From: Candidatus Zambryskibacteria bacterium RIFCSPLOWO2_01_FULL_35_19
GTDB taxonomy: Bacteria; Patescibacteriota; Minisyncoccia; Phycocordibacterales; WO2-35-19
Reading direction: 5' to 3'
Assembly: GCA_001825335.1 (NCBI GenBank)
Contig: MHWA01000004.1
Coordinates: forward strand, 35,341 to 99,340
Length of the DNA stretch: 64,000 nucleotides
Shown here one piece after another: positions 9,461-32,951 of the stretch (positions are counted from its first letter, which is position 1; each line of letters starts with the position of its first letter). The notes under the pieces were generated by a model. The model was not told the origin of the DNA, did not search any database, and saw only the letters and a program-made list of their open reading frames with translations. Both the position numbers and the translations under genes were made by a program.

Positions 9461-9477
9461 AAAATAAGGAACGTAGT

Positions 9478-16938: not shown

Positions 16939-16992
16939 TAATCAGAGAATACTACTTTTCAGATTCTATTACAATAATTTATGCCATCTGAA

Positions 16993-17295: not shown

Positions 17296-17300
17296 TATCT

Positions 17301-19061: not shown

Positions 19062-19650
19062 GATTTTTTTGCTGACAAATTTTCAGTATCTTTTCTGGAG
19101 TTGCAAACTCAATTTCTTTTGATTTTATTTTTATTAACTGCCTTATGAGATCTTCTTTGTTTAGAGATTCAATCTCTTTGATTAAATCCGCTAGTAAATA
19201 ATCTCGTAAATCTTCAATACTATTCATAGTTTCAGGAAGCCCTTATTTGTTATTTCTAAAATATGCTTTTAAATAAAGGTTTCCTAAATACTATTGTTAT
19301 AGGTGTGTATATATAAGTACATATACTTACACATTTCTTTTGTTAACAACTGATGCGGGCATTGGTGCGCTTTACAGAATCTAAGGCCTTTTTGAGTCGA
19401 AAAGAAAAAGCCCACTATATTTTGAATTTTCTTTGATTACGACGCTTCAGAGAGTCTTTTTCCATCTCAGCAAATACCCCTAACATTAGCAGAATATCCC
19501 TTCCAAAAAGTTTCTCTCGTTCAGCAGTGTCACTGTTTCTATCATTTAACACACGTGGATACATTGCCACGTTTTTGATATTTTTTGATTTCATAAATTT
19601 AGATTTTTTAAGTTTGTAAATTTTCAAAGTTTAATTTCACTGATTTTCTC

Positions 19651-20403
19651 CTATGATTCTGAATTCTTACTCCATTCGTAAGGCCCCAAAGCCAAAAATT
19701 GGGCAACTCGCTCCTCACTGGAGAAAAACCAAGCGACAGTTTGAGTTTCAGCAATTCCCTTCCAGTACTCGTTTTCCCTCACATTTTTGAGAGCACAGAC
19801 AAGCTCCTCTGGCCAATACTCGTTAAATCTTGCTTTGATATTTTCTTTAGCTTCTCTGGTCAATCTTTGTCCAGAACGGATTATGTTTGAATAAAGTGTA
19901 TACATTTTTTCTATTTTCTTTTCTATTGCTTTACTATCTATTGTGCTTGCATTTTGTTCATTACTTAACGCTTGCACTTCGTTCAAGGGGGTGGAGCCAC
20001 TTTTTTCTCCACCCGCCTGAACTTGTTGCAAGACTAGAGTATATTCGCTTGTCCACCCCTTGCGTTTCCTAATCGTGATGAACCCCTTATCTTCTAACTT
20101 ATGAAGTGACGTAACGACTTGTCTGTAGCTGAGACCTGTTCCAGTCCCGATCTTGCCACCGCCATTTGCTATTTGTTCTATGCTCATTGTGTCCGAGTTT
20201 TTCTGGAAGCCCCAGGTTCTGCGTAAGATAAACAAAAGCACTCGTGTTTCAGAGCCATTAAGCAGGTGCATGTATGAATCCAGGAGACGAGGAAACATCC
20301 AGAAATTTTTCTTCATTTCTGGAGGAAAGCCAGGAAATTGTTTGGGGTTGTCTTGCATATTTATTAATCTTCGTCCTTCCCATCCTCTTCTTCTGCGAGC
20401 CAA
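19651..20403 (-). CDS. winged-helix DNA-binding protein, phage replisome-organiser/initiator-like
   Basis: 250 aa; RVLLFILRRTWGF...MSIEQIANGGGKIGTGTGLSYRQVVTSLHKLEDKGFITIRK, which resembles the N-terminal domain of phage replication initiation proteins. Confidence 0.4.
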   Translation of the reverse strand: MARRRRGWEGRRLINMQDNPKQFPGFPPEMKKNFWMFPRLLDSYMHLLNGSETRVLLFILRRTWGFQKNSDTMSIEQIANGGGKIGTGTGLSYRQVVTSLHKLEDKGFITIRKRKGWTSEYTLVLQQVQAGGEKSGSTPLNEVQALSNEQNASTIDSKAIEKKIEKMYTLYSNIIRSGQRLTREAKENIKARFNEYWPEELVCALKNVRENEYWKGIAETQTVAWFFSSEERVAQFLALGPYEWSKNSES

Positions 20404-20693
20404 TCTCCAATTGTCATTATCTCTTCGTAGGAGTATGTGAATTTTAGATCAATCTCTCTGCCCTGAATGCGAAATACAATATTTGGACTACCCATATTTG
20501 TTAGAGAATCGTCCAAAAAAGATGGATAGAACGAAATATCAAGCCTTATGGGTTCAGTCATATGTTTGTCGTTGGTGGTATCCCATAGAATTTTGTTAAC
20601 AGCTACTACTACTTTTTCAGCAATTTCTTTAAACGAACTTTTATTAAATTCTTGTGACATTTTTTTGCCACCTTTCTTATTTGTTGTTGACAT
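20364..20693 (-). CDS. hypothetical protein (109 aa)
   Basis: Acidic C-terminus; overlaps the next gene's start by 40 nt, consistent with an operon. Confidence 0.3.
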   Translation of the reverse strand: MSTTNKKGGKKMSQEFNKSSFKEIAEKVVVAVNKILWDTTNDKHMTEPIRLDISFYPSFLDDSLTNMGSPNIVFRIQGREIDLKFTYSYEEIMTIGDWLAEEEDGKDED

Positions 20694-20763
20694 AATTTTA
20701 AATAATTCTTAAGAAGGAGTGTGGGAGCGGACTGACTATTGACCACCCCCAGTTCCTTTACGA

Positions 20764-21195
20764 TTACACTTTTCTATCTCTTGGGGGAACAGGAATGTTT
20801 TGAACTGATTTGTATGTGTTCTTGGTTTTCTTTTTTATCTGCTTTTTTGTCAAATAGCTTGTGTCATCTCTCATTGCCCAATATTCGTCTGGGTCATTGA
20901 AGTACATACTCGGTGTTCCCGCCTCAAACGCACCACTGGAATATTCCAAAGTGTATTTTGGATCATACGCCTTGCCGAAGCTGATTTGTCTGTTAAGCAC
21001 AAGTGGAAGTTTTTTCTTGGAAGGCAACAGTCTTATCCTCAGGATGATATCCCTGGGTATAATCTTGTCTCCTCCACTGAAAAACCCTCTTTTCTCCAAT
21101 TCTGTCGTAATCAACCATTCGGCATCATCTAACAAGTACCAGAGATATTTTTGGTCTTCTGGAAACTCTTTAATTTTTTTAATTTTGTAATTCAT
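20764..21195 (-). CDS. hypothetical protein (143 aa)
   Basis: ORF with plausible composition; no motif. Confidence 0.3.
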   Translation of the reverse strand: MNYKIKKIKEFPEDQKYLWYLLDDAEWLITTELEKRGFFSGGDKIIPRDIILRIRLLPSKKKLPLVLNRQISFGKAYDPKYTLEYSSGAFEAGTPSMYFNDPDEYWAMRDDTSYLTKKQIKKKTKNTYKSVQNIPVPPRDRKV

Positions 21196-21274
21196 AGATT
21201 TTATGCGGTCGGAACGCGGAGCACTTCTACAAAGTACTCCGCTCCTGCCACCGCAATTTATTTACTAACTCAAA

Positions 21275-21589
21275 CTACTCCAGTGGAATCTGGAACTGCG
21301 CCGTCTTTGTATGCTTGCGATAGTATCTAGAGGCCAACTCCATGATAGGAGTCTTGCCTCTAAGGTCCAGTTTGATCTGAGCTTCTTTGAGCTTCGCTGG
21401 TATTTTGCCGAATGCTTTCACTAGACTTGTGGCTATCTGGTTTGCTCCGTCTTCCAGTATGGCCGGCACTATTCCGTAACCTCTGGGCGGCATTGAGTTT
21501 TTGAATTGATATTTCATAACAATTCTTGTTTCTTGTTGGATTATTTTGTTCGCTTTGGAGAAGTATGCTAAACAAACGAGTAAAAGCAC
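21275..21589 (-). CDS. hypothetical protein (possible frameshift with overlapping ORF 21360..21653)
   Basis: Two overlapping reverse-strand ORFs in different frames; the downstream frame has the more protein-like sequence. Confidence 0.25.
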   Translation of the reverse strand: MLLLVCLAYFSKANKIIQQETRIVMKYQFKNSMPPRGYGIVPAILEDGANQIATSLVKAFGKIPAKLKEAQIKLDLRGKTPIMELASRYYRKHTKTAQFQIPLE

Positions 21590-22092
21590 CCGACAAAGAG
21601 TTGCCGGAACCGACCTCTTGCTTTTTTTGTTTGTTGCTCATTTTGACGAACAAAAAATCCGCTTATAATTTGCGGATGCAAGTGGTCAGCATTACGAGAT
21701 TCTGAAGCTGATGCAAACGCATCCTGTCTGAATCCCGTTGGGGCTGAGTCCTTAGTTGTAAGTTTACACTACCATAACCTCTAATTTTTACTTTATGGAA
21801 CCTGTGGATAACGATAAAATACAACACGAAACTTTTAATCTGCAAGACACCCAGATTGCCCGTTAAAAATAAAGCCATATAAAACCATTACTTATACCCC
21901 AAAATTCAGCAGCCGTGAACGCGCAGCCCGACGAAATGATGCTAGCCACCTACTCCTAGTCAGTGCCCAGAAAGGATGTGGCAGAGCAAAGCAGTGCCCA
22001 TTTTCTTAACTTTTCACTTTGAAAGTTGTAAACGAGTGAGGTTCGCACGGAAGCCATAATAAATGAGATTGATTGTCTCTCGCATCTTTTAT

Positions 22093-22614
22093 CTACTCAA
22101 ATTTATCAACAATTTTGTCCAGTTTGTCTGACGCTTCCAGTATCATATTCATAGACTGGTCATAGAGTTTAGAGTCATGTTTGTCTATTGCTCTTCTGTA
22201 AATCGGCATGGAATCTCTAAATAATTCAAAAGCTTGTAAAACTTCTTGATGTATAAGAATCAAGTCTTCAGGCGGAACAATGGCTTTAACTCTTTCGTAA
22301 GATTTTTCTATGATTAGTGTGTGTTTTGCCAACTCCGTCACATCCTTATTTGTCCAGTATTGTTGATACGATTGTAAAAGATTTCGTGCCTCCATTGAAT
22401 TAGTCACATCTTCATAAACACCAATCACTTGGTTGAAGTAAACGGAGGTGCTGTATTTGTTTGCTACATATTTATTATCAGATGGTAGAGACGAAGAAGG
22501 ATTTGATCCACCAGAAAAAGCTACATAAGCCCACAACATTAGAAGCACAAAAAATAAAATAGTCAAAAATCTTTGTGTCTTCTTTGTTTTCACCTCACCA
22601 TTTGTAGAATCCAT
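22093..22614 (-). CDS. hypothetical membrane-anchored protein (173 aa)
   Basis: N-terminal TM LTILFFVLLMLWAYVAF, then a soluble domain. Confidence 0.35.
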   Translation of the reverse strand: MDSTNGEVKTKKTQRFLTILFFVLLMLWAYVAFSGGSNPSSSLPSDNKYVANKYSTSVYFNQVIGVYEDVTNSMEARNLLQSYQQYWTNKDVTELAKHTLIIEKSYERVKAIVPPEDLILIHQEVLQAFELFRDSMPIYRRAIDKHDSKLYDQSMNMILEASDKLDKIVDKFE

Positions 22615-22968
22615 AAAATTTGAATTAAAAAAAACCTGCTACTAATGCAGGCGGCAAGACTCCGACAAAAAGCCCGCCACCAGGAAGGTCCGAAGACCTC
22701 TATAAGAGTTTCCCCTTATAACGTTGAGAACGCCCTGAATGACGGGTTGTTTGTTCTCAACGATTTTCGACCATGCCAGAGTTTGAAGCTACTGGTTTAG
22801 GTCTTTCGGACTATTTAGTTGTATTTATATAGTAATACTTGCCTCTCGTTAAGTAAACAAGTAATTTGAAAAGGCCTTATTATAAATTTATACAAAAAGG
22901 TATAATGACCTTACAAATCCATAGCCTAAACCGTTTTAGCGGCATGGCAAAAACCAACCACGAAATCC

Positions 22969-23994
22969 TCATTGAGGCCTAATTTGCGGTTGGGCGGTCG
23001 ATGAGGATTTTATATTATTCGCTTTTCCTTTAGTCCATTTTTTCGGCACTCTCCGATTCAGTTTTTGCAAGAGTTTAATCTTCAGATTTCTGGATCGGCA
23101 ATGAGAAAGGATTCCGTTATAAGAAGAAAAATTCTTATCTGTCGCTTTCCTTAGTATTCTCTTTTTGGTTTTGGTTCTCAAAATTCTGTAGCTAGGAAAA
23201 CAAACATAGCCAAGGTAATCAATGCCGCTTGAATAAGTTTTCAAGACTATCTTATCTGGATGGATTCTTAATTTTAAATTTTGCTCAGTGAAGTTTTGAA
23301 TTTTGGAAAGGCACAATTCCAAAAAACTTTTGTCTGTGTGCATAAGGATAAAATCATCAGCATATCTGATATATCCCTTGACTTTCAGTTCATGTTTCAC
23401 AAATTGATCAAGTTTATCCATGTAAATATTGGCAAAAATTTGAGAAGTGAGGTTACCAAGCGGTATGCCGGAACCAAAACTTTCCGTTATATCTTCAAAA
23501 AGTTTGATCAGTCTGCAATCAAAAGTCTCTTTTCTTAATATTTTAAGAAGTATTTCGTGGTCAACGGAATCAAAAAATTTCCTGATATCCAGCTTCAATA
23601 CCCACAATGTCCTGCTGTTATTACGAGAAAGCTTAAGTCCCATTTTATAAAGACGCTTAATGGCCCAGTGAGTGCCTTTGTATTTTCTGGAAGACCAAGA
23701 GTCAAAGATAAACTTCTTATCCCACATCTGCTCTATAACTCTGATTATTGCATGATGCAAAAGCCTGTCCCTGACGCTTGCCTTGTGAATATGCCTCTTT
23801 TTTGGATCATTAATGAAAAAGGAAAAATAACCGCCATGTTTATATACCCCATTTACCAAATCTTCATGCAATTTAAAAATATTGTCTTCAAGGTTAAGCT
23901 CAAATTCGGCGACATCCTTCTTTCTCCTTTTGTCCCTGCGAAACTCGGTCCATGCGTCGAACAAATTTTTTAGTGAAATAATTTTTTCAAACAT
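22969..23994 (-). CDS. DGR reverse transcriptase
   Basis: 341 aa; the N-terminus matches the DGR RT pattern (ELNLEDNIFKLHEDLVNGVYKHGGYFSFFINDPKKRHIHKASVRDRLLHHAI); IPLGNLTSQIFANIYM; catalytic IRYADDFILMH. Confidence 0.85.
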   Translation of the reverse strand: MFEKIISLKNLFDAWTEFRRDKRRKKDVAEFELNLEDNIFKLHEDLVNGVYKHGGYFSFFINDPKKRHIHKASVRDRLLHHAIIRVIEQMWDKKFIFDSWSSRKYKGTHWAIKRLYKMGLKLSRNNSRTLWVLKLDIRKFFDSVDHEILLKILRKETFDCRLIKLFEDITESFGSGIPLGNLTSQIFANIYMDKLDQFVKHELKVKGYIRYADDFILMHTDKSFLELCLSKIQNFTEQNLKLRIHPDKIVLKTYSSGIDYLGYVCFPSYRILRTKTKKRILRKATDKNFSSYNGILSHCRSRNLKIKLLQKLNRRVPKKWTKGKANNIKSSSTAQPQIRPQ

Positions 23995-23995
23995 A

Positions 23996-24376
23996 ATGAA
24001 TACAAAAAATGATATTAAAACCGCCGAACAAACTCCTCTGTTCCAAGCAGTCTATAAGCTGTATCTATCATGGTATGTCAGATGCAGCCAAATTCCAAAG
24101 AAAGATAGATTCACTATAGGCCAAAAGACAGAAAATCTGCTTTTGGAAATTCTAATTTTGGTAGTTACCGCCTACCATACGAACAATCCGGAATATAAAA
24201 GGCAATCTCTATCTAAAGCAAATACTCTGCTTGAATGCGTCAAAGTCACTATCCGGTTGGCCAAAGATGTTAAAGCTTTGGAACAGCGCTGGTATATTGA
24301 TTACCAAACCAGAATCCAGGAAATGGGTAAAATGCTCGGCGGGTGGATCTCTAGTACATGCAAAACGAACGGATAA
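23996..24376 (+). CDS. avd: Avd-like accessory variability determinant (four-helix-bundle family)
   Basis: 127 aa from the internal ATG of ORF 23882..24376. YLSWYVRCSQIPKKDRFTIGQKTENLL...EMGKMLGGWISS parallels phage BPP-1 Avd as I recall it (YLYPIAQSIPRKHGV...EVGRILGSWIAR). It is oriented divergently from the RT; its stop overlaps a hairpin plus T-run. Confidence 0.6.
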   Translation: MNTKNDIKTAEQTPLFQAVYKLYLSWYVRCSQIPKKDRFTIGQKTENLLLEILILVVTAYHTNNPEYKRQSLSKANTLLECVKVTIRLAKDVKALEQRWYIDYQTRIQEMGKMLGGWISSTCKTNG

Positions 24377-24410
24377 ATGTCCGTCCGTTTTTTCTTTACG
24401 AGAGTGACTT

Positions 24411-24528
24411 CGGAGGGAAACAACACCCAAATTGTCGTTGCGTTGCCCTGGGTTATTGTTGTTGACGTTGACGCCGTTGCGGTCAGCGTTGCCGAGATTC
24501 ACAAGCTTGCCGTTAGAGGAAAGGGTTG
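24411..24528 (-). repeat. DGR template repeat (TR)
   Basis: ~118 nt matching both VRs. All ~13-14 mismatches to each VR fall where the TR has T on the plus strand, which is A on the transcribed minus strand. It translates as ...NLGNADRNGVNVNNNNPGQRNDNLGVVSL, rich in AAC codons. A hairpin follows its 3' end at 24362-24391. Confidence 0.8.
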
Positions 24529-24825
24529 TTTTTGCGTCTCTCCATCCAGATCAGAGGCCTTAACCGGGCAGGCGCATCTTATAGGATGTAAGTAGCGCCT
24601 GTTGTGTAAAAATGTGGTGGCTGATTTAATCCGTCACCTAAGTGAATTTACATAAATCACCACTCCAGAGCGACGCAAGCAGTTCTTCTCTCATAATTCA
24701 ATGTTGGCGAGAATCATGACATGCACGATCCTTCATTAGCCATAAACATTATAGCACCTCAAAAAAATTGCGGCGAAGAAACCAAAGATTCAAAGAATAA
24801 ATATCAAAGTATCAAGAGAGAAAAA

Positions 24826-25809
24826 TCAGCGGAGGGAAACAACACCCAAATTGCCGTCGCGATGCCCTGGGTCATCGTCGTTGACGTCGACGCCGCTGCG
24901 GCCAGCGTCGCCGAGATCCACAAGCCTGCCGTCAGAGGAAAGGGTGTTAGACCAGTCATAGTTTGCTTCCAAAATGCCCCTTTCTTTCCTATTTCTAAAC
25001 TGCAAAACCCAGTCATACAATATTTCCGCCGGAATACGCCTATGGTTTTTATTTATCAAAAGTTCCGAAAGTTTCCTTGCCACTTCTTTCCAATTTTTAT
25101 CATAATCTTCGTCAAGCATTTTTTGGAGTCCTTCAAGAAGTTCGTCGGTACATTCTTCTTGTTCTTCCTTTGAAACGGAATCCAAACCCATAAGATAATC
25201 GCGTAACACCTTGGTTTGTTCTATATAATTTTTACTGGTGGAATCGGGCACAAAATTTTTGCCAACCAGTTTCCATTCGGTCCTTAAAGAAGCGTTTTTG
25301 AAAAAATCTTCAGTTTGATACCAGCCTATGTCGTAAAGCAATTTTTCCTGTTCTTCTTCGCTATCTTCCTCTAAAATTGCTTGCATGAGTCCATTCATTC
25401 TCTCCATAGTCATAGGAGATCCTTCTCCATCGCTTTCTACCCGTAGCACAAGCATTTCTCCGTTCCCCTTAGCTTTTTCAAGTATTTCAGGACTATATGG
25501 AATGGCTGGCACTTTTTCTTGAGGGAATTCAAATCTAAAAGTACTCTTTATTTCTTCAACTCCATAAAAACTATCGCTCATGATCTCTTGGGCTTGTTCA
25601 TAAGAAGTTTCAATTCCTTCACTTGTTTTTTTATTACCAACACCAAGTTCTTGTTTAAGTTTTATATATTTTTCTTTTATAGCCTTGAGTTCCTGGACGC
25701 TTAAAGAGTTAAGCTCTCGGCCTTTTTGGATGACAGTTATTTCTTCAACAATTTTAGAGCCGAGCTCGCTCTCTTTTTCGGGATTTGTGGTTTTAGGTGC
25801 ACCTTCCAT
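24826..25809 (-). CDS. DGR target protein 1 (short paralog, C-terminal variable module)
   Basis: 327 aa; the C-terminal ~150 aa are paralogous to target 2; ends ...DLGDAGRSGVDVNDDDPGHRDGNLGVVSLR. Confidence 0.7.
   Translation of the reverse strand: MEGAPKTTNPEKESELGSKIVEEITVIQKGRELNSLSVQELKAIKEKYIKLKQELGVGNKKTSEGIETSYEQAQEIMSDSFYGVEEIKSTFRFEFPQEKVPAIPYSPEILEKAKGNGEMLVLRVESDGEGSPMTMERMNGLMQAILEEDSEEEQEKLLYDIGWYQTEDFFKNASLRTEWKLVGKNFVPDSTSKNYIEQTKVLRDYLMGLDSVSKEEQEECTDELLEGLQKMLDEDYDKNWKEVARKLSELLINKNHRRIPAEILYDWVLQFRNRKERGILEANYDWSNTLSSDGRLVDLGDAGRSGVDVNDDDPGHRDGNLGVVSLR
24829..24946 (-). repeat. DGR variable repeat VR1
   Basis: Begins immediately 5' of the stop codon; differs from the TR only at TR adenines (Asn AAC becomes Asp, Ser or Gly). 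Confidence 0.8.
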
Positions 25810-25905
25810 ATTTTTGCTTATTTAAAGCCAGTATATCATAAAAATTTTCGCGGAAAAACCAAAGGAACAAAGGGAAAAGATCAAAGGTTCAATATGAGAA
25901 AAGAA

Positions 25906-28290
25906 CTAGCGGAGGGAAACAACACCCAAATAGTCGTAGCGTAGCCCTGGGTAATCGTTGTTGACGTCGACGCCGTCGCGGTCAGCGAGGCCGAGATCCA
26001 CAAGCTCGCCGTAAGAGGAAAGGGCTGCTGTCCAATCATAGGTCTTCTCCAAAATTCGCTCATTATTGCCCTTTATGGAGAGCAAGATGTCATAAAGGAC
26101 TTCTGGCGGCAGTCTCCTGTGATTTTTGTTCACGGTAAGCTCAGAGAGTCTTCTAGCCGCCTCCTGCCAGTCTGATTTCATAATTTCGTTAATTTCTTCA
26201 AGAACTTTATCGGAACATTCTTTGGCCTCATCTTCAGTCAGAGATCCCAGTGATATTAAATATTCGCGCAATATTTTTGTTTGCTCTATATAATTTGTGG
26301 ATCCTTCAGCTTTACCGCCATAAGAAGTAGTCACCGACTCAGGAAGAGGAGCTTTGGTTGTAAGCCTCCATTTCAAGCGAGGATGAGTATTTGGAATTGG
26401 CGTGCCATCTTTATTGATTCCGGTGTAAAACGGCTCATCTTTATACCAACAACTACTTTCTAACTTTGCTGCACCAGATTTATCTTGTCCATACAAAACC
26501 TTAATTTTTTCTCCAGTAGCAGGATCGATCAATTCAGGAATCATTTCAAGCATATGAGATATGGTAAGGAACTTACCTTCTGAGTCTTTATCAACTCCGA
26601 GTACAAGCATTTCTCCATTCTCCTTGGCCTTTTCAAGATCATCCGGCGAATATGGCATATCTGGAATATCTTCAAGAGCCACTTTGATACCAAAAGTCTT
26701 TTCAATTTTTTCAGGTCCCATATAGTCTTTGCCCAACATTTCTTTTGCTAATTCCATTTTTTTAAGCAAAGTATCAGGTGAAGTTCTTCTCTCCGGCTTT
26801 GATAGTTTACCACTGGCCTCAACTTCTGCTTTCAGTTTTTCAATATCTTTAATGAGCCCAGCCTTTTCTGGAGATATACCGGCAGTTTCTAAGCTTTTTC
26901 TTTTTGATTCTCCCGGCTTAGGTTTGTATTCCACTAATCTTATAAGCTCCCCGAGCTTTTTTCTGTCAGCGTCACTCTCCAATTTATTGGCGTAATAATA
27001 ACGGAGAGCTTGTTGCATGGTTTCGTTAATATCTCCATTATAAAATCTCAAAATAAAATCTCTGACTCTACGAGGTTCCATACGATCATCGTAAGTGAAA
27101 GGTTGAGGCTGATCTTCAGCAATTTTTCTATTTTTCAAAAGCTCTTTGGCCGCTTTATGAAATTCTTTAAATTTTTCCAAAACTTCAGGCAGTCCTTGAA
27201 TATCTTGGAGTTGCTCTGTTGTTAAACCTTCACCTCTGGCTCTGAGGAACATGTCAGGAGTTATATTTTGCGTTCCAGCTCCTATTCCAAAAAGGGCGTC
27301 TGTTGAAAATGAGAACGTGCCTTCTGGAAGTTCGGTTGGCAGTTTTTTGTAAACCCATCTTCGGAGTTGGGCAGGATCTAGTGGTTCACGACCAAAATAT
27401 CCTTTGCCTGGAGGGTTCATCAGGGCAATAATTTTGGTCTTCTCTTTATTCACAGCTACAGCTTCTGAAGCATCTTCAGACAATACGACATCTCCACCCC
27501 TTTCAAGAGAATCTAAAACTTCATGGAGACGAATGAGAATGTTTGGGGCTGAAGCGTTGAATTCGTCCAATATAATTATTTTTGTCTTGCCTTCTTCTTG
27601 CCTCAAACCGCTTGTTACTTTGCCGTCTGCAAAAATATATTCAGGATCTTCAGGTTTATTTTTGTGAGGATTGGGAATGTATCTCCCCATCAAATCTTCA
27701 ACATCAGTTGCCCCGTTGAGGTTCGCATAATGAATCTCCCAACCAAGTTCAGCTGCCATCTTTTTAACCGTTGTGGTTTTGCCTAGAGATGTTCCACCAT
27801 CAACAAGCAGAGGCTCACCGCTTACAAACGCCACAGCGATATCTCTTTGCAAAGGCAAAGCCACTTCTTTGTCATTTATAAAATCTTGGTATTGCTCTCT
27901 TCTTGGTATAAATTGACCATTACCATTTTTTGCTTTCTCCAAACCAACTCCAAGATAAGAAACGCTGCTTTCAGTTTCTTCAATAGAATTTTCAGTTATG
28001 GGAATAATCTCTACAAATAATTTACCGCTCATGGGATCCTCCGGATTGGTGTCTTCCACAACTCTAACCTTATACGGATATCCAGGCTCCGGTACTGGAG
28101 AAGATTTTGCCAAAATAATAATTTTCCTGCTTGGAGAACTGCTTTTATATTCCTTTTCGCCACTCTTTTTTTGCTGTTCTTCAAATATGACATCATCAAT
28201 AAAATTGCCCCCTTCTTGTGTCCCCACATTTTCTATTTTAGCCTTATTTTTAGGGTCAAAATTGATATTTTCCATTTCAGTGCTTGACAT
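25906..28290 (-). CDS. DGR target protein 2: MoxR/AAA_5-family ATPase fused to a DGR-diversified C-terminal module
   Basis: 794 aa; Walker A GGTSLGKTT; Walker B KIIILDEFNASAPNILIRLHEVLD (the DEFN matches MoxR DEINRA); sensor region IIALMNPPGKG...DPAQLRRW; the C-terminus ...DLGLADRDGVDVNNDYPGLRYDYLGVVSLR carries VR2. Confidence 0.75.
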   Translation of the reverse strand: MSSTEMENINFDPKNKAKIENVGTQEGGNFIDDVIFEEQQKKSGEKEYKSSSPSRKIIILAKSSPVPEPGYPYKVRVVEDTNPEDPMSGKLFVEIIPITENSIEETESSVSYLGVGLEKAKNGNGQFIPRREQYQDFINDKEVALPLQRDIAVAFVSGEPLLVDGGTSLGKTTTVKKMAAELGWEIHYANLNGATDVEDLMGRYIPNPHKNKPEDPEYIFADGKVTSGLRQEEGKTKIIILDEFNASAPNILIRLHEVLDSLERGGDVVLSEDASEAVAVNKEKTKIIALMNPPGKGYFGREPLDPAQLRRWVYKKLPTELPEGTFSFSTDALFGIGAGTQNITPDMFLRARGEGLTTEQLQDIQGLPEVLEKFKEFHKAAKELLKNRKIAEDQPQPFTYDDRMEPRRVRDFILRFYNGDINETMQQALRYYYANKLESDADRKKLGELIRLVEYKPKPGESKRKSLETAGISPEKAGLIKDIEKLKAEVEASGKLSKPERRTSPDTLLKKMELAKEMLGKDYMGPEKIEKTFGIKVALEDIPDMPYSPDDLEKAKENGEMLVLGVDKDSEGKFLTISHMLEMIPELIDPATGEKIKVLYGQDKSGAAKLESSCWYKDEPFYTGINKDGTPIPNTHPRLKWRLTTKAPLPESVTTSYGGKAEGSTNYIEQTKILREYLISLGSLTEDEAKECSDKVLEEINEIMKSDWQEAARRLSELTVNKNHRRLPPEVLYDILLSIKGNNERILEKTYDWTAALSSYGELVDLGLADRDGVDVNNDYPGLRYDYLGVVSLR
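25909..26026 (-). repeat. DGR variable repeat VR2
   Basis: Same structure as VR1; about 14 adenine-specific differences from the TR. Confidence 0.8.
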
Positions 28291-28494
28291 TATAACTCAT
28301 ATTTGCTATAATATACCCAGAATAGTTCTTTAAATTGTCTGGAAGGTTTTGAAAGAAGTACGACGGGACGCTGGCTAGCCATGCCAAACTCCCCCAAACA
28401 AAACGCGCCAGACCTAGCCACGGTCCGGGACGCACCCCAGCCTCTTTAAAAAGAAGGGGCTTTTTTTTATTTAAAAATGAAAATTTTTGAGTAT

Positions 28495-28902
28495 TCATGA
28501 TTGATATGCCGGACCGCAATTGGCTAATATATTCCAGCCTTTGTCTTGAAGTTTATTCAAATCTTCTTTCAAAACAAGAAAAATCACACAGCCATTGGTA
28601 TAGTCTGGAGAAAACGTTTTTGATTCCATCACGTTATTATCAAAAATTTCCACTTGGCCTGTAGGATACTGAATCAGGAAATCATAAAAATCTTTGCTCA
28701 TATTTTCGCCTGCAACAAGATATGTTTTGGCAGAATTAAATAGATCTGAAATATTATCTGATCGTTTGAATCCTTCGCTCTCCATTGCTCCCGAAAAATC
28801 GCTCAATTGATCTCTGTCTTGGGCTATAATTAGCCCCACTTCTTTTTGGCCAAAAGTTGCCTTAAGAAAATCGGTAAATTCTTTGTTTTCAGTTTCTTTC
28901 AT
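28495..28902 (-). CDS. hypothetical protein (135 aa) between the VWA and MoxR genes
   Basis: Plausible composition; no motif. Confidence 0.3.
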   Translation of the reverse strand: MKETENKEFTDFLKATFGQKEVGLIIAQDRDQLSDFSGAMESEGFKRSDNISDLFNSAKTYLVAGENMSKDFYDFLIQYPTGQVEIFDNNVMESKTFSPDYTNGCVIFLVLKEDLNKLQDKGWNILANCGPAYQS

Positions 28903-28916
28903 ACAGCTTATTTATA

Positions 28917-31202
28917 CTAAAAATTCTGATAATTGGCAATCACTTCTTTTATAAGGTCAGCCAACTTCTCAGCCATTTCTTCCACTTTAACATTTGCAAT
29001 GCTATTTGGATAATATCTGCCAACATGATCGGTCCCCCCACCTATACCCAAACCTATCAAACGAATATCGCTTTCTTCAAGCACTTGTTTGATCATTTTC
29101 CCAAGTTCATATTTTGTCCTCGGATGCATTGAGGATTCCTCAGGTGTGCCATCAGACATGACAATCAAAAATTTCTGATCGGCTTTTTGTTTCTCTAATC
29201 TTTTTGAGGCTTGCTCCAATGCCCAGCCGTCATCATTCCATCTGGCCTTCCCTGTATCGCTAGTATCGTTTACCTCTTGAAGCATGCCTCCCATATGCTC
29301 TCTTATAATTTTGGACATCTGCTCTCCAAAATCTTGATACTCATACATGCGATCATTAAATCCAAGTATTTCAAGATTTATAGATAAGCGGTTTAAAACT
29401 TCCGACAAAACAATAACGGCTTTGAAAGTTTCTTCTATTTTATTTCCGTTGGACATAGAACCGGAAAGATCAACCAATATGGAAATAGCGTAATCTTTTT
29501 CTTTTGGAAGTTCTCTTTTTTGCCAAGCTTTGCTCTCCATAGCCGGAACAGATTTGGCTTTCTCTTGAATCCTTCTTTTAATATCAATCCGCTTGCCGGT
29601 AGTGAAGCCGCTTTTCCAGCCTCTGGCTCTACGCTCGACGAATATCTCTCTCAAATCATTTTCAAGTTTGTCTATGAGCGGAAGGACTTCTTTTCTCATT
29701 CGTTCATAAACATTTTCGTCCTTTTTTAATTCTTTAGCTACTCTGTCTTTGTATTTTTTTAATTCTTCCTCATCAACTTCTTGTGTTTCTCTTCCGGTTT
29801 TTGTTTCTTGCTCAACTTCTTGTTTTGGCTTAACTTCGGCATCTCGTTCCGCCTTCTTTTCCGGATTATCAGAAAGTTTGCCTTGCAACTCTTCATTAAG
29901 AGCCTCCTCAAATTCTTTCATGGCTTTTTCAGCCTTATCTTTTATTTCTTTTTGCTCTCCTTCCGGGAGAGACTGGATATACTCTTTTATCTTTTGTTTT
30001 AAATCTTCAGAAAGAGAGTCTAAATCTATAGGTTTGGTTCCCGGGGATTGTTGTCCTTCCGTATCCTGTGGTTCACCTTCTCCAGCTGATTCGGAAGACT
30101 CTTCAGATTTTTCTCCTTTCTCTCCTTCAGCTTGTTGCTTTTCTTTCTCTGCTTTTTCTTTAGCCTCCTGTTGCTCCTTTTTGGCCTGTTCAATGGCTTT
30201 CTTTATGGCCTCCTCTAAAGCTTGCTGCTCTTCCGGAGTTAATTTATCTTTCAGTTCTTGTGGCATTCCTTTTTCTCCTTTTTCTTCGCCTCCGTCTTTT
30301 TCTTTCTGCATATCCTTTAACAATTCTTCCATTTTTTGATCTTCCATATCAGCTTCAACCAATTTTTTAAACTCTGGCCATATTTGATCTCGATTTATTT
30401 GATACGAAAGCTCGGCATATTTTCTGATCAACCCTTCGCTTTTGTCAGCCTCTTGTCTAGAAGGATATCTGAGCCAGGAATCTTGGGCCGATAACAGAGT
30501 CGCTTCAACTGCAGTTTTAACTTCCTCCGGCAAATCTGGAGACAATTCAAAATCTTGCTCTTTAGTTTCTCTAAACCATTGTTTAATATATTCAAATCCG
30601 GCCTGCATAAAGCGGGGCTTATATCCAAGTTTTTGCTCGGCTTTTTCTTTGGCCTTGGCTTCAAAATCCAAATCTTGTTCATAGGCCAAACCCATTTGTT
30701 CTCCAAATTTAGGATAACTTTCAGCCACAAAGTTATTGTCTCTTGGGTCTTCTATAGAATTCATCATGAAAGAAAACCCCGGTTGCTTCCATTCTTCCAA
30801 AGGAATAAAATCAGTCCGGCTGATTCTTCTGTGGCCGCCTTCATGAGAAATGACAAATCTTAAATAATCCATCGGTTTTTCCAAAAGATCTTTAGGATCA
30901 ATTCGTATTATGTTATTTTTAAAATCCCAATACCAACCGCCACCAGATTCATTAAGCTCAATTGGAATACGAAAATCTTTGCCTATGAAATACGCAAGAG
31001 AAGAGAGGGTCTGTTGTTTTTGTTTTATTTCTTCCTGCTGTTCAGGAGTAAACTCCGCAAGAATTTGTTTTTCTCTTTCTGGTTTCAGAGCTTTATATAT
31101 CTGCTCCGGCATTTCCGCAGTTTCGTTTTCAGGTATTTTGCCGTCTAATTTAATGCCCTCCATAAAATTGATTATAACTATATTGTGTCGCAAATTGGAC
31201 AA
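28917..31202 (-). CDS. DUF2201-like protein: N-terminal HExxH metallopeptidase-like domain, long K/E-rich coiled region, C-terminal VWA domain with MIDAS motif
   Basis: 761 aa; VISHEGGHRRISR (HExxH); VWA ISILVDLSGSM (DxSxS) ... LIVMSDGTPEE; this is the classic partner type of MoxR ATPases. Confidence 0.65.
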   Translation of the reverse strand: MSNLRHNIVIINFMEGIKLDGKIPENETAEMPEQIYKALKPEREKQILAEFTPEQQEEIKQKQQTLSSLAYFIGKDFRIPIELNESGGGWYWDFKNNIIRIDPKDLLEKPMDYLRFVISHEGGHRRISRTDFIPLEEWKQPGFSFMMNSIEDPRDNNFVAESYPKFGEQMGLAYEQDLDFEAKAKEKAEQKLGYKPRFMQAGFEYIKQWFRETKEQDFELSPDLPEEVKTAVEATLLSAQDSWLRYPSRQEADKSEGLIRKYAELSYQINRDQIWPEFKKLVEADMEDQKMEELLKDMQKEKDGGEEKGEKGMPQELKDKLTPEEQQALEEAIKKAIEQAKKEQQEAKEKAEKEKQQAEGEKGEKSEESSESAGEGEPQDTEGQQSPGTKPIDLDSLSEDLKQKIKEYIQSLPEGEQKEIKDKAEKAMKEFEEALNEELQGKLSDNPEKKAERDAEVKPKQEVEQETKTGRETQEVDEEELKKYKDRVAKELKKDENVYERMRKEVLPLIDKLENDLREIFVERRARGWKSGFTTGKRIDIKRRIQEKAKSVPAMESKAWQKRELPKEKDYAISILVDLSGSMSNGNKIEETFKAVIVLSEVLNRLSINLEILGFNDRMYEYQDFGEQMSKIIREHMGGMLQEVNDTSDTGKARWNDDGWALEQASKRLEKQKADQKFLIVMSDGTPEESSMHPRTKYELGKMIKQVLEESDIRLIGLGIGGGTDHVGRYYPNSIANVKVEEMAEKLADLIKEVIANYQNF

Positions 31203-31415
31203 TAAGACAAATATGGACTGATGCGGATTTAAGCGGTATTATTTATAGATAATTGAATAAGCCTAAACTTGCCAAGCCAAATTAGCAAGCATGGCGCAAA
31301 CCCAACCACGGCAGAGAACTCCTCGTTCAGGAGCACCGTGGTTGGTCCCATCCGGAAACGGGTGGTGGGTGGCGTAAGCCATCGCCTGGCGGGGAGTTTT
31401 CTGCCATCCCAAAAC

Positions 31416-32951
31416 TTAATATTGTTGTTTTGGTCTGTAAGAAATAGCTTCTAAAATATGGGAAGAAGAAATCTCAATGGAAGATTCTAGATCCGCAATG
31501 GTACGAGCCAACTTAATGATTTTGTGATAACTCCTAGCAGAAAGATCTAAAGTTTTTGCCGATCTGTTTAAAATCTCTTTTACTTCGTCTGATATTTTTA
31601 AAATGAGAGTAATATCTCTAGCATTCATTTCAGAGTTAGTAGATATTTTTCTACCAGCATTTTTGAATCTTTTTTCTTGAATATCTCTCGCCTTCATTAT
31701 TCTTTCCCTTGCTGGGATACTCTCACTCTTTTCGGCTTTCTCTGTTAATTTTTCATGATCTACCTTTGAAACTTCTGTCCATATATCTATACGATCTATT
31801 ATGGGTCCAGATATTTTTCTCTTGTATCTTTCAATTTGAAGCGGTGCGCAAGTACACGGTTTACCTTTTATTCCAAAATTTCCACACGGACAAGGATTCA
31901 TAGCGGCTACGAGTATGAAGTGCGCAGGAAACTTTACGGTGCCTTTGGCTCTTGAAACCGAAACAACCCTTTCTTCTAACGGCTCTCTCAAAGCTTCGAT
32001 TGCTTTATTTTCAAATTCTGGAAATTCGTCAACAAATAATATTCCCTTGTGGGCTAAAGTGACTTCCCCCGGCCTCGGATTAGTACCACCACCAATCAAA
32101 GCAACATAAGAGGCTGTGTGGTGAGGAGATCTAAAAGGTCTCTCTGCTACTAAACTATCATTCAAGGCGCCAGTCATAGAATGTATTTCTGTCACCTCTA
32201 AAGCTTCTTCAAATGAAAGTGGTGGTAGAATACCAGGCAGAGCTTTGGCGAGCATAGTTTTTCCTGTTCCAGGAGGTCCATAAAGAGCGATGTTGTGTCC
32301 GCCAGCCGCGGCTATCTCCAAAGCCCGTTTAGCTGATTCTTGACCTTTAATATCGGCAAGATCAAGAGAAATGTTATGCAAATTTTTTATCTCTTTTTTC
32401 TTTTCTTGTTTTAGCTTTTGGTTTATATCAGTATCATGGGCAACATGATTTATAATTTCCACCAAAGTTTCTGCTCCAAAAACAGCAATGCCGTCAACAA
32501 GAGCTGCTTCTGGAGCGTTTTCCACTGGTAGATATATTTCTCTGAAACCTTTTTCTTTTGCCTTACGAGCAAATGCTAAAGCTCCTTTTACGGATCGCAA
32601 ACCTCCGTCAAGTGAGAGCTCTCCAAGAAAAATTTTGTCTTTAGAATCAAACAGAATATCTCCGCTTGCTAACAAATATGACAAAGCAATAGCAACGTCT
32701 AAACCAGATCCTTCTTTTCTGACTTCAGCTGGTGCTAAAGATATAACAACTTTATGATTTTTTGACTTTGGGGATTCAAAACCAGAATTCTTAACAGCAG
32801 CGCTTATTCTATCTTTAGCTTCTTCAACGGCCTTATCACCTAGTCCAACTATTGAGAAAGAATTCAATCCTCTGGAAAGATCAGCCTCCACATCAACAAT
32901 ATATGGTTTGAGAAGTGAAGCTTGAGCACTGTGAACTTTAGCATATGACAT
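31416..32951 (-). CDS. comM: Mg-chelatase-like AAA+ ATPase ComM/YifB (intact copy, inside the element)
   Basis: 511 aa; N-terminal Lon-like domain; Walker A YGPPGTGKTMLAKAL; ILFVDEFPEF; Cys cluster MNPCPCGNFGIKGKPCTCA. Confidence 0.85.
   Translation of the reverse strand: MSYAKVHSAQASLLKPYIVDVEADLSRGLNSFSIVGLGDKAVEEAKDRISAAVKNSGFESPKSKNHKVVISLAPAEVRKEGSGLDVAIALSYLLASGDILFDSKDKIFLGELSLDGGLRSVKGALAFARKAKEKGFREIYLPVENAPEAALVDGIAVFGAETLVEIINHVAHDTDINQKLKQEKKKEIKNLHNISLDLADIKGQESAKRALEIAAAGGHNIALYGPPGTGKTMLAKALPGILPPLSFEEALEVTEIHSMTGALNDSLVAERPFRSPHHTASYVALIGGGTNPRPGEVTLAHKGILFVDEFPEFENKAIEALREPLEERVVSVSRAKGTVKFPAHFILVAAMNPCPCGNFGIKGKPCTCAPLQIERYKRKISGPIIDRIDIWTEVSKVDHEKLTEKAEKSESIPARERIMKARDIQEKRFKNAGRKISTNSEMNARDITLILKISDEVKEILNRSAKTLDLSARSYHKIIKLARTIADLESSIEISSSHILEAISYRPKQQY

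What the first reader, a model, noticed from the sequence alone, without database searches (positions are those of the whole stretch)
22969..26026. Complete diversity-generating retroelement with two variable repeats and a divergently oriented avd
Three ~118-nt copies of one sequence lie at 24411-24528, 24829-24946 and 25909-26026. The copy nearest the RT has T on the plus strand (A on the coding minus strand) at every position where the other two differ. There are ~13-14 differences per copy and none at other bases. This adenine-only asymmetry marks the first copy as the DGR template repeat.

The other two copies are variable repeats ending the C-termini of two paralogous genes. The TR translation is AAC-rich (NVNNNNPGQRNDN). 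The VRs read VDVNDDDPGHRDGN and VDVNNDYPGLRYDY, and both end with the invariant GVVSLR, typical of a DGR target's variable C-terminus.

The RT has the DGR-type N-terminus and a GNLTSQ motif. An Avd-like four-helix-bundle ORF sits between TR and RT but on the opposite strand. Its start is only 2 nt from the RT start, an unusual divergent arrangement. A hairpin abuts the TR 3' end and doubles as the avd terminator. This could correspond to the structured spacer used for cDNA priming.
Basis: partly seen in the sequence, partly recalled or inferred. Interest (0 to 1): 0.85.

Follow-up and report, generated by a model that had tools for sequence, protein, structure and literature searches.

The report
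Active CPR-type diversity-generating retroelement
This is a real, recently active diversity-generating retroelement of the kind already known to be common in ultra-small "CPR" bacteria; its opposite-strand avd gene is normal for that group, and the new lead is that its template RNA appears to carry its priming structure upstream of the template instead of downstream.

Summary
TR (24411-24526), VR1 (24830-24945) and VR2 (25910-26025) are 116-nt copies on the minus strand. All 13+13 TR/VR differences fall on TR adenines (P about 2e-9 each).

The RT is closest to the Bordetella phage DGR RT. Avd matches DGR Avd models. The VR-bearing domain folds like the DGR variable protein TvpA (C-type lectin/FGE fold).

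Independent metagenome assemblies of the same locus are identical over 12-21 kb apart from 13 (VR1) and 2 (VR2) substitutions, all at TR-adenine positions, plus 0-2 other differences each. The element is therefore active in nature.

The "unusual" reverse-strand avd is the published norm for CPR DGRs (architecture B3, 90% of that set). AAA-ATPase-fused targets are also published. One target protein is identical to one from Parcubacteria GW2011_GWC1_34_10. The locus is an ordinary member of a known class.

Three things are new:
- A conserved, covarying ~230-nt structured leader lies directly 5' of TR, with its own promoter and terminator. Its pairings mirror the phage "primer" and "stop" duplexes in permuted order.
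- CTTTG motif arrays follow each VR.
- The cassette sits on an ~18-kb serine-integrase island that splits comM.

The parts
22969..23994 (-). DGR reverse transcriptase (341 aa)
   Evidence: RVT_1 at 9e-26. PLGNLTSQ and YADD are invariant in 29 relatives. The best solved relative is the Bordetella phage bRT 8ub7 at E 1.7e-39; group II RTs score about 1e-15. All named homologues are Patescibacteria.
23996..24376 (+). avd accessory gene (126 aa), divergent from the RT with 1 nt between the start codons
   Evidence: bAvd PF22296 at 2.7e-17. NF033474 DivGenRetAVD at 9e-20, 70.9 bits, just under the curated cut-off of 80. Relatives have the same orientation with 0-4 nt between start codons.
24362..24391 (.). 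12-bp hairpin (AAAACGGACGGA / UCCGUUCGUUUU) holding the avd stop codon. It is the avd terminator on the plus strand, and a putative terminator and Avd-binding stem-loop of the TR RNA on the minus strand
   Evidence: Terminator-like site on the plus strand at 24367-24390. The fold gives -17.9 kcal/mol. A hairpin plus T-rich tail lies within 75 nt after TR in 50 of 55 related loci. The position matches the Avd-binding stem-loop of the phage DGR RNA. Its role on the minus strand is inferred.
24396..24410 (-). 3' flank of TR, the proposed primer-binding site (AGU ... CUCUCGUAA)
   Evidence: Complementary to leader positions 24696-24688 and 24683-24681. It begins 1 nt after the TR/VR homology ends. 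Compensatory changes occur in L019 and in other type B loci and in type A loci. Inferred.
24411..24526 (-). Template repeat (TR), 116 nt, non-coding, 30 adenines
24527..24745 (-). Structured 5' leader of the TR RNA (type B). It has stem-loop 24732-24710, a proposed primer strand 24696-24681, long-range helix P2 (24678-24667 with 24541-24532), long hairpin P3 (24663-24614), hairpin P4 (24599-24571) and a conserved GGAUGG at 24547-24542
   Evidence: Covariance model R2, built without the window or L007, matches 24516-24745 (minus) at 67.9 bits, E 4e-12 in 1.3 Mb. This is the only match in the window. Covariation: 92.6% of cells paired against 69.9% in shuffles, and 20 of 23 pairs have changes on both sides. 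The single-sequence MFE fold gives the same helices. No Rfam family matches.
24748..24756 (-). Extended -10 promoter-like box TGCTATAAT for the TR RNA
   Evidence: TGnTAnAAT-like boxes lie 75-120 nt after the VR end in about 25 of 56 related loci. This is a sequence match only.
24757..24825 (-). Array of CTTTG / YTTGR motifs downstream of VR1
   Evidence: The 5-mers CCCTT, CCTTT and CTTTG are enriched 10-16-fold in the 80 nt after the VR across the clade. Three or more copies occur in 72% of loci against 5% of random windows. The window has 5 copies after VR1.
24826..25809 (-). Target gene 1 (327 aa): N-terminal helices plus a C-type lectin/FGE-like domain. VR1 is 24830-24945
25830..25905 (-). 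CTTTG motif array downstream of VR2
   Evidence: 3 copies. The segment is 74% identical to the one after VR1 (repeat family D3).
25906..28290 (-). Target gene 2 (794 aa): AAA_5 (CobS/MoxR-like) ATPase with intact Walker A (GKTT) and Walker B (ILDEF), plus a C-terminal paralogue of target 1. VR2 is 25910-26025
   Evidence: AAA_5 at 4.4e-12, residues 166-311. PHROG 'porphyrin biosynthesis'/ATPase families. The C-terminal 315 aa align with target 1 at 45% identity. Two VR2 alleles occur between samples.
28495..28902 (-). Conserved 135-aa protein of unknown function, always between the VWA and AAA_5 genes
   Evidence: Syntenic in L007, L012, L016 and L019. No Pfam, NCBIfam, PADLOC or PHROG match.
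28917..31202 (-). VWA / CobT-like protein (761 aa) with a MIDAS motif DLSGS, the likely partner of the AAA_5 target
   Evidence: CobT_C at 5e-18 and VWA at 2.7e-7. PHROG CobT. The VWA-135aa-AAA_5 order is conserved in the closest relatives and in L027.

Best explanation
This is a complete, currently active DGR of the CPR/Patescibacteria-specific lineage (architecture B3: targets - TR - reversed avd - RT). Target 1 is identical to a protein of Parcubacteria group bacterium GW2011_GWC1_34_10.

Mechanism, shown or standard: TR RNA is reverse-transcribed by the RT with Avd. Adenines are miscopied. The cDNA replaces the 116-nt VR at the 3' end of two paralogous genes, rewriting about 19 codon positions on the surface of a C-type-lectin-fold domain.

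One target is a CobS/MoxR-like AAA_5 ATPase encoded next to a CobT-like VWA protein and a conserved 135-aa protein. The other is a free-standing copy of the variable domain. No signal peptide or membrane segment is evident by eye, so the products are probably cytoplasmic. I infer, by analogy only, that they act as hypervariable binders or sensors coupled to an ATPase-VWA machine.

RNA model, inferred from covariation: the TR RNA is a self-contained transcript of about 380 nt, made up of an extended -10 promoter, a structured leader, TR, a short flank and a terminator hairpin.
- A leader strand pairs with the flank just 3' of TR. This would be the counterpart of the phage TR:Sp template-primer duplex.
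- Two to six nt later, the next leader strand pairs with the 10-12 nt just 5' of TR. This would be the counterpart of the phage avd:Sp 'stop' duplex.
- Stem-loops and an A-rich single strand lie between these strands.

The functional core of the phage spacer (Sp) is thus placed 5' of TR, a permuted DGR RNA. Only the Avd-binding-like hairpin stays 3' of TR, where it also terminates the convergent avd gene.
For: DGR identity:
- A-only TR/VR differences.
- RT closest to bRT 8ub7, with the DGR motif.
- Avd models match.
- Target domain has the CLec/FGE fold.

Activity:
- L004/L005 differ from the window by 13 substitutions in VR1, and L002/L003 by 2 in VR2. Only 0-2 differences occur elsewhere in 12-21 kb.
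- All 15 variant positions lie at TR adenines.
- Three VR1 protein alleles are seen.

Lineage and architecture:
- 598 relatives in the GTDB genome scan, and the 80 loci kept are almost all labelled CPR/Patescibacteria.
- Reversed avd in 68 of 80 loci.
- A-biased TR/VR pairs in 60 of 91 loci.
- Wu et al. 2018 describe B3 and the Midasin/P-loop targets. Dore et al. 2024, citing Paul 2017, say CLec fused to an AAA ATPase is the commonest CPR target.

RNA model:
- R2 match in the window at E 4e-12, with covariation.
- Type A leader found in 56 loci, always abutting TR: 97% of cells paired against 68% in shuffles, and 36 of 40 pairs with compensatory changes.
- Leader/TR-flank complementarity with compensatory changes. 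Cognate pairs exceed non-cognate pairs at permutation p<0.0005 for type A. Type B examples sit exactly at the TR/VR homology end.
- Terminator-like hairpin after TR in 50 of 55 loci.
- The topology matches the cryo-EM description of the phage RNA.
Against: - There are no expression or cDNA data, so the promoter, the terminator and the priming site are all inferred.
- In the window itself the duplex next to P2 is only 3 bp (ACU:AGU), extended by a 9-bp segment across an internal loop.
- The type B permutation test is weak (p=0.08, 13 sequences).
- The type A model does not detect the window's leader (1.4 bits), so homology between the two leader types rests on shared layout and weak cross-hits.
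- On the minus strand the window's hairpin has its U-run inside the stem, and the terminator scan did not call it on that strand. Read-through into antisense avd and the RT gene therefore cannot be excluded.
- How RT and avd are each transcribed from start codons 1 nt apart is unexplained.
- The function of the targets is unknown, and PADLOC gives no defence-system match for the module.
Confidence: 0.9

Rival explanations
1. The DGR is real, but its RNA works in the canonical order. TR is co-transcribed with the RT through antisense avd, and the priming and stop elements lie 3' of TR as in the Bordetella phage. The conserved leader would then be something else, such as a 3' UTR or stability element of the target mRNA, a regulator of TR transcription, or a protein-binding platform unrelated to priming.
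For: Handa et al. report putative Avd-binding stem-loops and upstream:downstream 'stop' duplexes in 207 of 278 Avd-containing DGRs, CPR members included. They used 40 nt upstream and 100 nt downstream of TR. The window's hairpin is a weak terminator on the minus strand. No separate RT promoter was identified.
Against: The 10-12 nt immediately 5' of TR covary with a leader strand about 130 nt further upstream, not with downstream sequence. Terminator-like hairpins with T-tails follow TR in 50 of 55 loci. Sequence 3' of the hairpin is avd coding sequence read backwards. The leader strand next to P2 is complementary to the TR 3' flank, with compensatory changes.
Confidence: 0.25
2. The element is a decayed or inactive DGR remnant, and the VR differences are old.
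For: Wu et al. caution that many DGRs in genomes may be non-functional. No cDNA or expression data exist.
Against: All ORFs are intact. Assemblies from different samples are identical over 12-21 kb except inside VR1 or VR2, and only at TR-adenine positions. There are at least 3 VR1 and 2 VR2 alleles.
Confidence: 0.03
3. The repeats result from gene duplication or gene conversion between paralogues, next to an unrelated group II intron or retron RT.
For: NCBIfam's best-scoring model for the RT is the group II RT/maturase (126 bits), and some database records call relatives 'group II intron' or 'retron-type' RT.
Against: That score is far below the model's cut-off of 300, and the NCBIfam scan returned no DGR RT family. 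The RT matches the phage DGR RT about 24 orders of magnitude better than it matches group II RTs. No group II intron or retron RNA is found by Rfam. Strictly adenine-directed asymmetry, with a non-coding donor copy, is not produced by conversion.
Confidence: 0.01

Closest known systems
CPR/Patescibacteria DGRs (Paul et al. 2017; 'CPR set', architecture B3 and UVR4/Midasin targets of Wu et al. 2018; DGR clade 2 of Roux et al. 2021)
   Same: The gene order targets-TR-(avd reversed)-RT is the same. The host lineage is the same. Targets lack membrane or secretion signals. One target is fused to a dynein/midasin-type AAA ATPase. The source is a Rifle groundwater genome.
   Different: Nothing essential differs; this is a member of the class. 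What I add here:
- The fold of the VR domain, left open for UVR4 by Wu et al., comes out as CLec/FGE-like.
- The AAA target has a conserved VWA/CobT-like partner and a 135-aa partner.
- VR alleles differ between samples.
- A structured leader lies 5' of TR.
I could not read Paul et al. 2017 (not held), so some of this may already be described there.
Bordetella phage BPP-1 DGR (mtd-avd-TR-brt) and its DGR RNA (Handa et al.)
   Same: The RT is homologous (E 1.7e-39). Avd is present, mutagenesis is adenine-specific, and the target has a CLec fold with a C-terminal VR. A stem-loop lies immediately 3' of TR. A primer-type duplex pairs with the TR 3' flank and is followed within a few nt by a duplex that pairs with the sequence just 5' of TR.
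   Different: Here avd is on the opposite strand between TR and RT. There is no Sp region 3' of TR. The strands equivalent to Sp 50-70, and the following stem-loops, lie 5' of TR in a leader of about 230 nt. There is no GC-rich inverted repeat after the VR; CTTTG motif arrays are found instead. There are two targets, and neither is a phage tail protein.
DGR-diversified vWA-MoxR 'ternary' conflict systems of multicellular bacteria (Kaur et al. 2020; Dore et al. 2024)
   Same: A MoxR-clade AAA+ ATPase and a VWA protein are encoded together with a DGR that diversifies a CLec/FGS domain. The products are cytoplasmic and proposed to act as sensors.
   Different: In those systems the variable domain is usually fused to the vWA protein, and a third VMAP/effector component (peptidase, TIR and others) is present. 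Here the variable domain is fused to the ATPase. No effector domain or VMAP was detected. The RT belongs to the separate CPR clade. The hosts are ultra-small, probably episymbiotic bacteria.
Treponema denticola TvpA
   Different: Sequence identity is 15%. TvpA is a surface lipoprotein, and its DGR uses an HRDC accessory gene (architecture C in Wu et al.).

Membership tests
Diversity-generating retroelement (DGR) | A TR/VR repeat pair whose differences fall almost only at TR adenines | tested here: met
   13 of 13 and 13 of 13 mismatches at TR adenines; P about 2e-9 each.
Diversity-generating retroelement (DGR) | An RT of the DGR clade ([I/L/V]GxxxSQ motif; closer to known DGR RTs than to group II or retron RTs) | tested here: met
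   LGNLTSQ is invariant. bRT 8ub7 scores E 1.7e-39, against 1.8e-15 for group II and about 1e-5 for retron RTs. No full phylogeny was made.
Diversity-generating retroelement (DGR) | An accessory protein (Avd, HRDC or other) | tested here: met
   bAvd PF22296 at 2.7e-17. NF033474 scores 70.9 bits against a cut-off of 80, slightly below.
Diversity-generating retroelement (DGR) | The VR lies in a ligand-binding fold that tolerates variation (CLec or Ig), usually C-terminal | tested here: met
Diversity-generating retroelement (DGR) | An IMH-type invariant segment at the VR 3' end, marking the 3' limit of mutagenesis | tested here: met
   The last 21 nt (UUUGGGUGUUGUUUCCCUCCG) contain no adenine and are identical in TR, VR1 and VR2. 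Homology ends there. IMH and IMH* are identical, a case noted by Wu et al..
Diversity-generating retroelement (DGR) | Ongoing mutagenic retrohoming (VR variation within a population) | tested here: met
   Differences between samples are confined to the VRs, at TR-adenine positions. This comes from assembled contigs, not from reads.
Diversity-generating retroelement (DGR) | Cis-acting RNA elements flanking TR that prime and bound cDNA synthesis | tested here: inconclusive
   Covarying leader and leader:flank duplexes have the phage topology in permuted order. There is no biochemical test.
CPR DGR architecture B3 (Wu et al. 2018) | Core order TR-(avd on reverse strand)-RT | tested here: met
   Window coordinates. 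Definition. Found in 68 of 80 relatives.
vWA-MoxR (VMAP) ternary conflict system | [quoted passage not shown] | tested here: not met
   The ATPase and VWA protein are present. The third gene is a 135-aa protein with no detectable domain. There is no peptidase, TIR or VMAP match in Pfam or PADLOC. The VMAP profile itself was not available.
Group II intron | Ribozyme domains flanking an RT/maturase ORF | tested here: not met
   No group II intron RNA is found by Rfam, even at E<=1. The NCBIfam group II model scores 126 bits against a cut-off of 300.
Retron | An msr/msd ncRNA adjacent to a retron-clade RT | tested here: not met
   No retron RNA family is found by Rfam. Retron RT models score far below their cut-offs (54 against 235).
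LOOT RNA (Rfam RF03000), flanking elements and not part of the DGR | A score above Rfam's gathering threshold for the covariance model | tested here: met
   22685-22803 (minus) scores 73.4 bits and 31260-31383 (plus) scores 76.9 bits, against a gathering score of 46.4. It is absent from related DGR loci.

The most novel reading that the evidence does not exclude
DGRs of the CPR lineage, this one included, use a circularly permuted DGR RNA. This would be an autonomous ncRNA of about 380-400 nt. The Sp-like functional core (primer strand, stop-duplex strand, stem-loops, A-rich single strand) lies 5' of TR, and only the Avd-binding hairpin, which doubles as the terminator, lies 3'. cDNA would be primed from a leader nucleotide at the exact TR/VR homology boundary. 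A companion feature, the CTTTG motif arrays after each VR, may replace the phage's GC-rich cruciform as the target-site marker. I found no description of either feature in Rfam 15 or in the papers I could search.
Probability: 0.5. Interest if true: 0.7.

Novelty: new member of a known kind. Interest (0 to 1): 0.5.

Why it matters
As a locus it is a textbook example of a DGR class that was surveyed years ago, so the find itself adds little. Its value lies in three things.

1. It gives direct natural evidence of activity in a CPR DGR. Otherwise identical 12-21-kb haplotypes carry different VRs. The organisms cannot be cultured and the role of their cytoplasmic ATPase-fused targets is unknown.

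2. Following it outward exposed a large, strongly covarying RNA domain upstream of TR in about 70 related loci. This domain reproduces the pairing logic of the only structurally solved DGR RNA, but in permuted order. If confirmed, it shows how the most numerous DGR lineage primes and bounds cDNA synthesis. It would also explain why avd can sit backwards between TR and RT. And it would give a compact, self-contained RNA design for DGR-based mutagenesis tools.

3. The cassette rides on a serine-integrase island, showing how such modules move between CPR genomes.

Tried and rejected
- LOOT RNAs as DGR parts. Two strong Rfam LOOT matches flank the VWA-to-RT module in inverted orientation. However, LOOT is absent from 11 related DGR loci scanned with Rfam. 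A sequence profile of the two copies finds nothing in any other fetched locus. The two copies are divergent and are not part of longer inverted repeats. I rejected LOOT as a general DGR component.
- Known RNA family for the leader. None is found in Rfam 15, either in the window at E<=1 or in 12 related loci at gathering thresholds.
- Leader as a protein-coding gene. Open frames in the gap resemble each other in several frames and on both strands, which points to nucleotide-level rather than protein conservation.
- One RNA family for all leaders. The type A model does not detect the window's leader, so a separate type B model was needed.
- Defence-system assignment of the target module. PADLOC gave nothing for the VWA protein, the 135-aa protein or target 1, and only a marginal mad8 hit for the ATPase.
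- Prophage. PHROGs gave an integrase, an O-like replication initiator and a helicase-like protein, but no structural genes among the island ORFs tested. I call it an integrative element, not a prophage.
- Avd against solved structures by sequence: no hit.
- Papers I could not obtain: Paul et al. 2017, the supplements of Wu et al. 2018 and Weinberg et al. 2017, and a 2026 preprint on ncRNA mining that mentions DGRs. Prior description of the leader therefore cannot be excluded.
- Remote targets. BLAST of TR against the whole 64-kb window finds only VR1 and VR2.

Full report
**1. The observation**

Three in-register copies of one sequence lie on the minus (coding) strand: TR 24411-24526, VR1 24830-24945 and VR2 25910-26025. 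TR differs from VR1 at 13 positions and from VR2 at 13 positions. Every one of these is an adenine in TR. TR has 30 A in 116 nt, so the chance of this pattern is about 2e-9 per VR.

The adenines sit at codon positions 1 and 2 (28 of 30), and TR has 8 AAC and 3 AAT codons. The last 21 nt contain no adenine and are identical in all three copies. Homology stops there. Both VRs end ORFs with ...LGVVSLR*. BLAST of TR against the whole window finds no further copy.

**2. The proteins**

- *RT (22969-23994, minus).* It matches RVT_1 and has the DGR motif LGNLTSQ and YADD, both invariant in 29 relatives. Its best solved relative is the Bordetella phage DGR RT (8ub7, E 1.7e-39). Group II RTs score about 1e-15 and retron RTs about 1e-5. 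The NCBIfam scan returned no DGR RT family, so its best hit, the group II model, is far below its cut-off.
- *Avd (23996-24376, plus).* It matches bAvd and the DGR Avd equivalog, the latter just under its curated cut-off.
- *Target 2 (794 aa).* It has an AAA_5 ATPase domain with intact Walker motifs, followed by a paralogue of target 1.
- *Upstream genes.* These are a conserved 135-aa protein and a CobT-like VWA protein with a MIDAS motif.

**3. Activity in nature**

The exact RT sequence occurs on contigs from many samples. L001 is identical to the window over 21 kb.

- L002 and L003 differ from the window at 2 and 3 positions. Two of these lie in VR2.
- L004 and L005 differ at 14 and 15 positions. 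Thirteen of these lie in VR1.
- All 15 VR variant positions correspond to TR adenines.
- At the protein level, three VR1 alleles exist on otherwise near-identical 327-aa proteins.

This is what repeated mutagenic retrohoming predicts, and point mutation or recombination does not explain it. One allele is identical to a protein of Parcubacteria group bacterium GW2011_GWC1_34_10. That is a Rifle groundwater genome, the dataset that underlies the published CPR DGR surveys.

**4. How ordinary it is**

A scan of one genome per GTDB species found 598 relatives, and the 80 loci kept are almost all labelled as CPR/Patescibacteria MAGs.

- In 68 of 80 fetched loci an avd homologue lies on the reverse strand directly before the RT.
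- A-biased TR/VR pairs were found in 60 of 91 loci.
- Wu et al. 2018 define this layout as architecture B3, TR-(avd)-RT. They report that it accounts for 90% of their CPR set, and they describe CPR targets with Midasin/P-loop ATPase motifs.
- Dore et al. 2024, citing Paul et al. [quoted passage not shown]
- Roux et al. 2021 place such RTs in a CPR-restricted clade whose targets lack membrane domains.

Within my sample, the VWA-135aa-AAA_5 module is confined to the window's closest relatives and L027. More distant relatives mostly have small targets of 185-236 aa.

**5. The RNA: a new lead**

In 56 loci the VR stop codon and TR are separated by a non-coding gap of 221-497 nt, with a median of about 330. 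The gap contains an extended -10 box (TGnTAnAAT) in about 25 loci. In the window this is TGCTATAAT at 24756-24748. Downstream of it lies a conserved sequence running up to TR.

RNAalifold predicts a multi-helix structure in which 30 of 34 pairs have compensatory changes.

*Type A leader.* A covariance model of the common form (R1, 238 positions) finds it in about 60 loci. It is always on the TR strand and abuts TR, including at a second DGR in L060. On 56 sequences, 97.0% of cells pair, against 68% in shuffles and 40-50% when partners are slid. Thirty-six of 40 pairs show changes on both sides.

*Type B leader.* R1 does not detect the window. The window and 14 other loci carry a variant with the same layout. 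A model built without the window or its closest relative (R2) matches 24516-24745 (minus) at 67.9 bits, E 4e-12 in 1.3 Mb. This is the only match in the window. Its covariation is significant: 92.6% paired against 69.9% in shuffles, with 20 of 23 pairs changed on both sides. The window's own minimum-energy fold gives the same helices.

No Rfam 15 family matches either type.

**6. Reading the RNA against the phage structure**

In the Bordetella phage:
- Sp, located 3' of TR, supplies a strand that pairs with the TR 3' end, and priming starts from A56.
- Two nt later, another Sp strand pairs with the 11 nt just 5' of TR. This is the "cPRT Stop" duplex.
- A stem-loop, A-rich single strands and an RT-binding stem-loop follow.
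- An Avd-binding stem-loop sits immediately 3' of TR.

In the CPR leaders:
- The long-range helix P2 pairs a leader strand with the 10-12 nt just 5' of TR. In the window this is 24678-24667 with 24541-24532.
- The leader segment 2-6 nt upstream of that strand is complementary to the flank just 3' of TR, with compensatory changes.
  - Type A examples: AAAUGAAGA:UCUUCAUUU, AAAAUAAAGC:GCUUUAUUUU, AAAAUGAAAA:UUUUCAUUUU, CAUACGA:UCGUAUG.
  - Cognate pairs beat non-cognate pairs at permutation p<0.0005.
- In type B the duplex (AAGACU:AGUCUU, AACACU:AGUGUU, UAGAAACU:AGUUUCUA) sits exactly where TR/VR homology ends. It is followed by "GC" and then P2.
- In the window this duplex is ACU:AGU (24683-24681 with 24410-24408). 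It is extended across an internal loop by UUAUGAGAG:CUCUCGUAA (24696-24688 with 24404-24396). L019 shows compensatory changes (CAUGAGAG:CUCUCAUG).
- Between the two P2 strands lie two hairpins and a conserved A/U-rich single strand.

After TR, 50 of 55 loci have a hairpin with a T-rich tail. In the window this is 24362-24391. It contains the avd stop codon and terminates avd on the other strand.

The simplest reading is an autonomous TR RNA (promoter, leader, TR, flank, terminator) whose Sp-like core is permuted to the 5' side. This would explain how avd can occupy the TR-RT interval on the opposite strand.

None of this has been tested biochemically. For the window specifically the evidence is weaker than for the clade: the adjacent duplex is short, the type B permutation p is 0.08, and the minus-strand terminator is modest.

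**7. Function of the targets (inferred)**

The hypervariable CLec domain is attached to a CobS/MoxR-type ATPase that has a CobT-type VWA partner. A free copy of the variable domain is diversified from the same TR. No signal peptides are apparent by eye.

The closest functional analogy is the DGR-diversified vWA-MoxR systems proposed as antigen sensors in multicellular bacteria. Membership fails, however. There is no VMAP or effector component, the variable domain is on the ATPase rather than on the vWA protein, and the RT clade is different. I regard a [quoted passage not shown] as likely. Its ligand, whether phage, host-cell or self, is unknown.

**8. Context**

A comM-like gene is split at codon 306/307. 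The N-terminal piece is 33081-33836 and the C-terminal piece is 14502-15167, each 89% identical to the intact copy. The insertion is about 18 kb and carries:
- an intact comM paralogue (31416-32951),
- the DGR module,
- an O-like replication initiator,
- a large serine integrase (17301-19061, PHROG integrase at 3e-104),
- a Schlafen/AlbA-type ATPase.

Relatives of the cassette also lie next to serine recombinases (L007, L017) or in unrelated chromosomal contexts, consistent with a mobile module.

**9. Verdict**

The locus is a new member of a known kind, and quite possibly already catalogued. The permuted-RNA model, the CTTTG arrays after the VRs and the population-level VR switching are the parts worth following up.

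Noticed in passing
window 22685-22803 (-) and 31260-31383 (+); weak third match 22923-23019 (+): Two strong matches to the Rfam LOOT RNA (73 and 77 bits; gathering score 46) flank the VWA-to-RT module in inverted, outward-facing orientation. The left copy lies 165 nt after the RT stop and is followed by a strong terminator (22652-22634). A third, sub-threshold LOOT-like match (25 bits, E 0.19) overlaps the RT 3' end. The copies are divergent in sequence, are not part of longer inverted repeats, and are absent from related DGR loci. Their function is unknown.
   Followed up: partly
window about 15150-33100; fragments 14502-15167 (-) and 33081-33836 (-); intact copy 31416-32951 (-): An island of about 18 kb is inserted into a comM/Mg-chelatase-like gene at codon 306/307, in the Walker B region. 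The island carries its own intact comM paralogue (89% aa identity to the split copy), a large serine integrase (17301-19061), an O-like replication initiator (19651-20403), and the whole DGR/VWA/AAA module.
   Followed up: partly
window 24757-24825 and 25830-25905 (-); the same position in about 40 related loci: Short CTTTG / CCTTTG(A/G) motifs repeat every 8-12 nt in the 80 nt after each VR stop codon. The 5-mers are enriched 10-16-fold, and three or more copies occur in 72% of loci against 5% of random windows. This may be a target-site marker for retrohoming in this lineage, which lacks the GC-rich inverted repeat of the phage DGR.
   Followed up: partly
window 15433-16938 (-): A 501-aa SLFN_AlbA_2 / HATPase_c_4 protein on the island matches PADLOC models of Argonaute-associated proteins (Aga SIR2-PNTD, E 1e-26) and a PHROG 'DNA helicase' family (1e-63). 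It may be a defence or cargo gene of the island.
   Followed up: no
window 23992-23998: The RT and avd start codons are on opposite strands and only 1 nt apart (0-4 nt in relatives). Each gene's promoter must therefore lie inside the other's coding sequence, or the mRNAs are leaderless. CATAAT at 23992-23997 spans both start codons. No promoter could be assigned.
   Followed up: no
window 9046-9461 (+) and 2189-2276 (+): A tmRNA (97 bits) and a tRNA-Ser(GCT) lie outside the island, consistent with the window being chromosomal DNA of a cellular (CPR) genome rather than a phage.
   Followed up: no
L060 16667-17261 (-) and L027 11832-12168: L060 carries a second complete TR/VR pair with its own leader on the opposite strand, so there are two DGR RNA units in one locus. 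L027 has a second VR downstream of the RT, followed by a weak leader-like match (E 0.0014).
   Followed up: no
L014 / L015 (RT P0058, 66% identical): A close RT homologue sits with an overlapping HTH gene in place of avd, and no TR/VR pair lies within 10 kb. It may be a degenerate or repurposed DGR RT.
   Followed up: no
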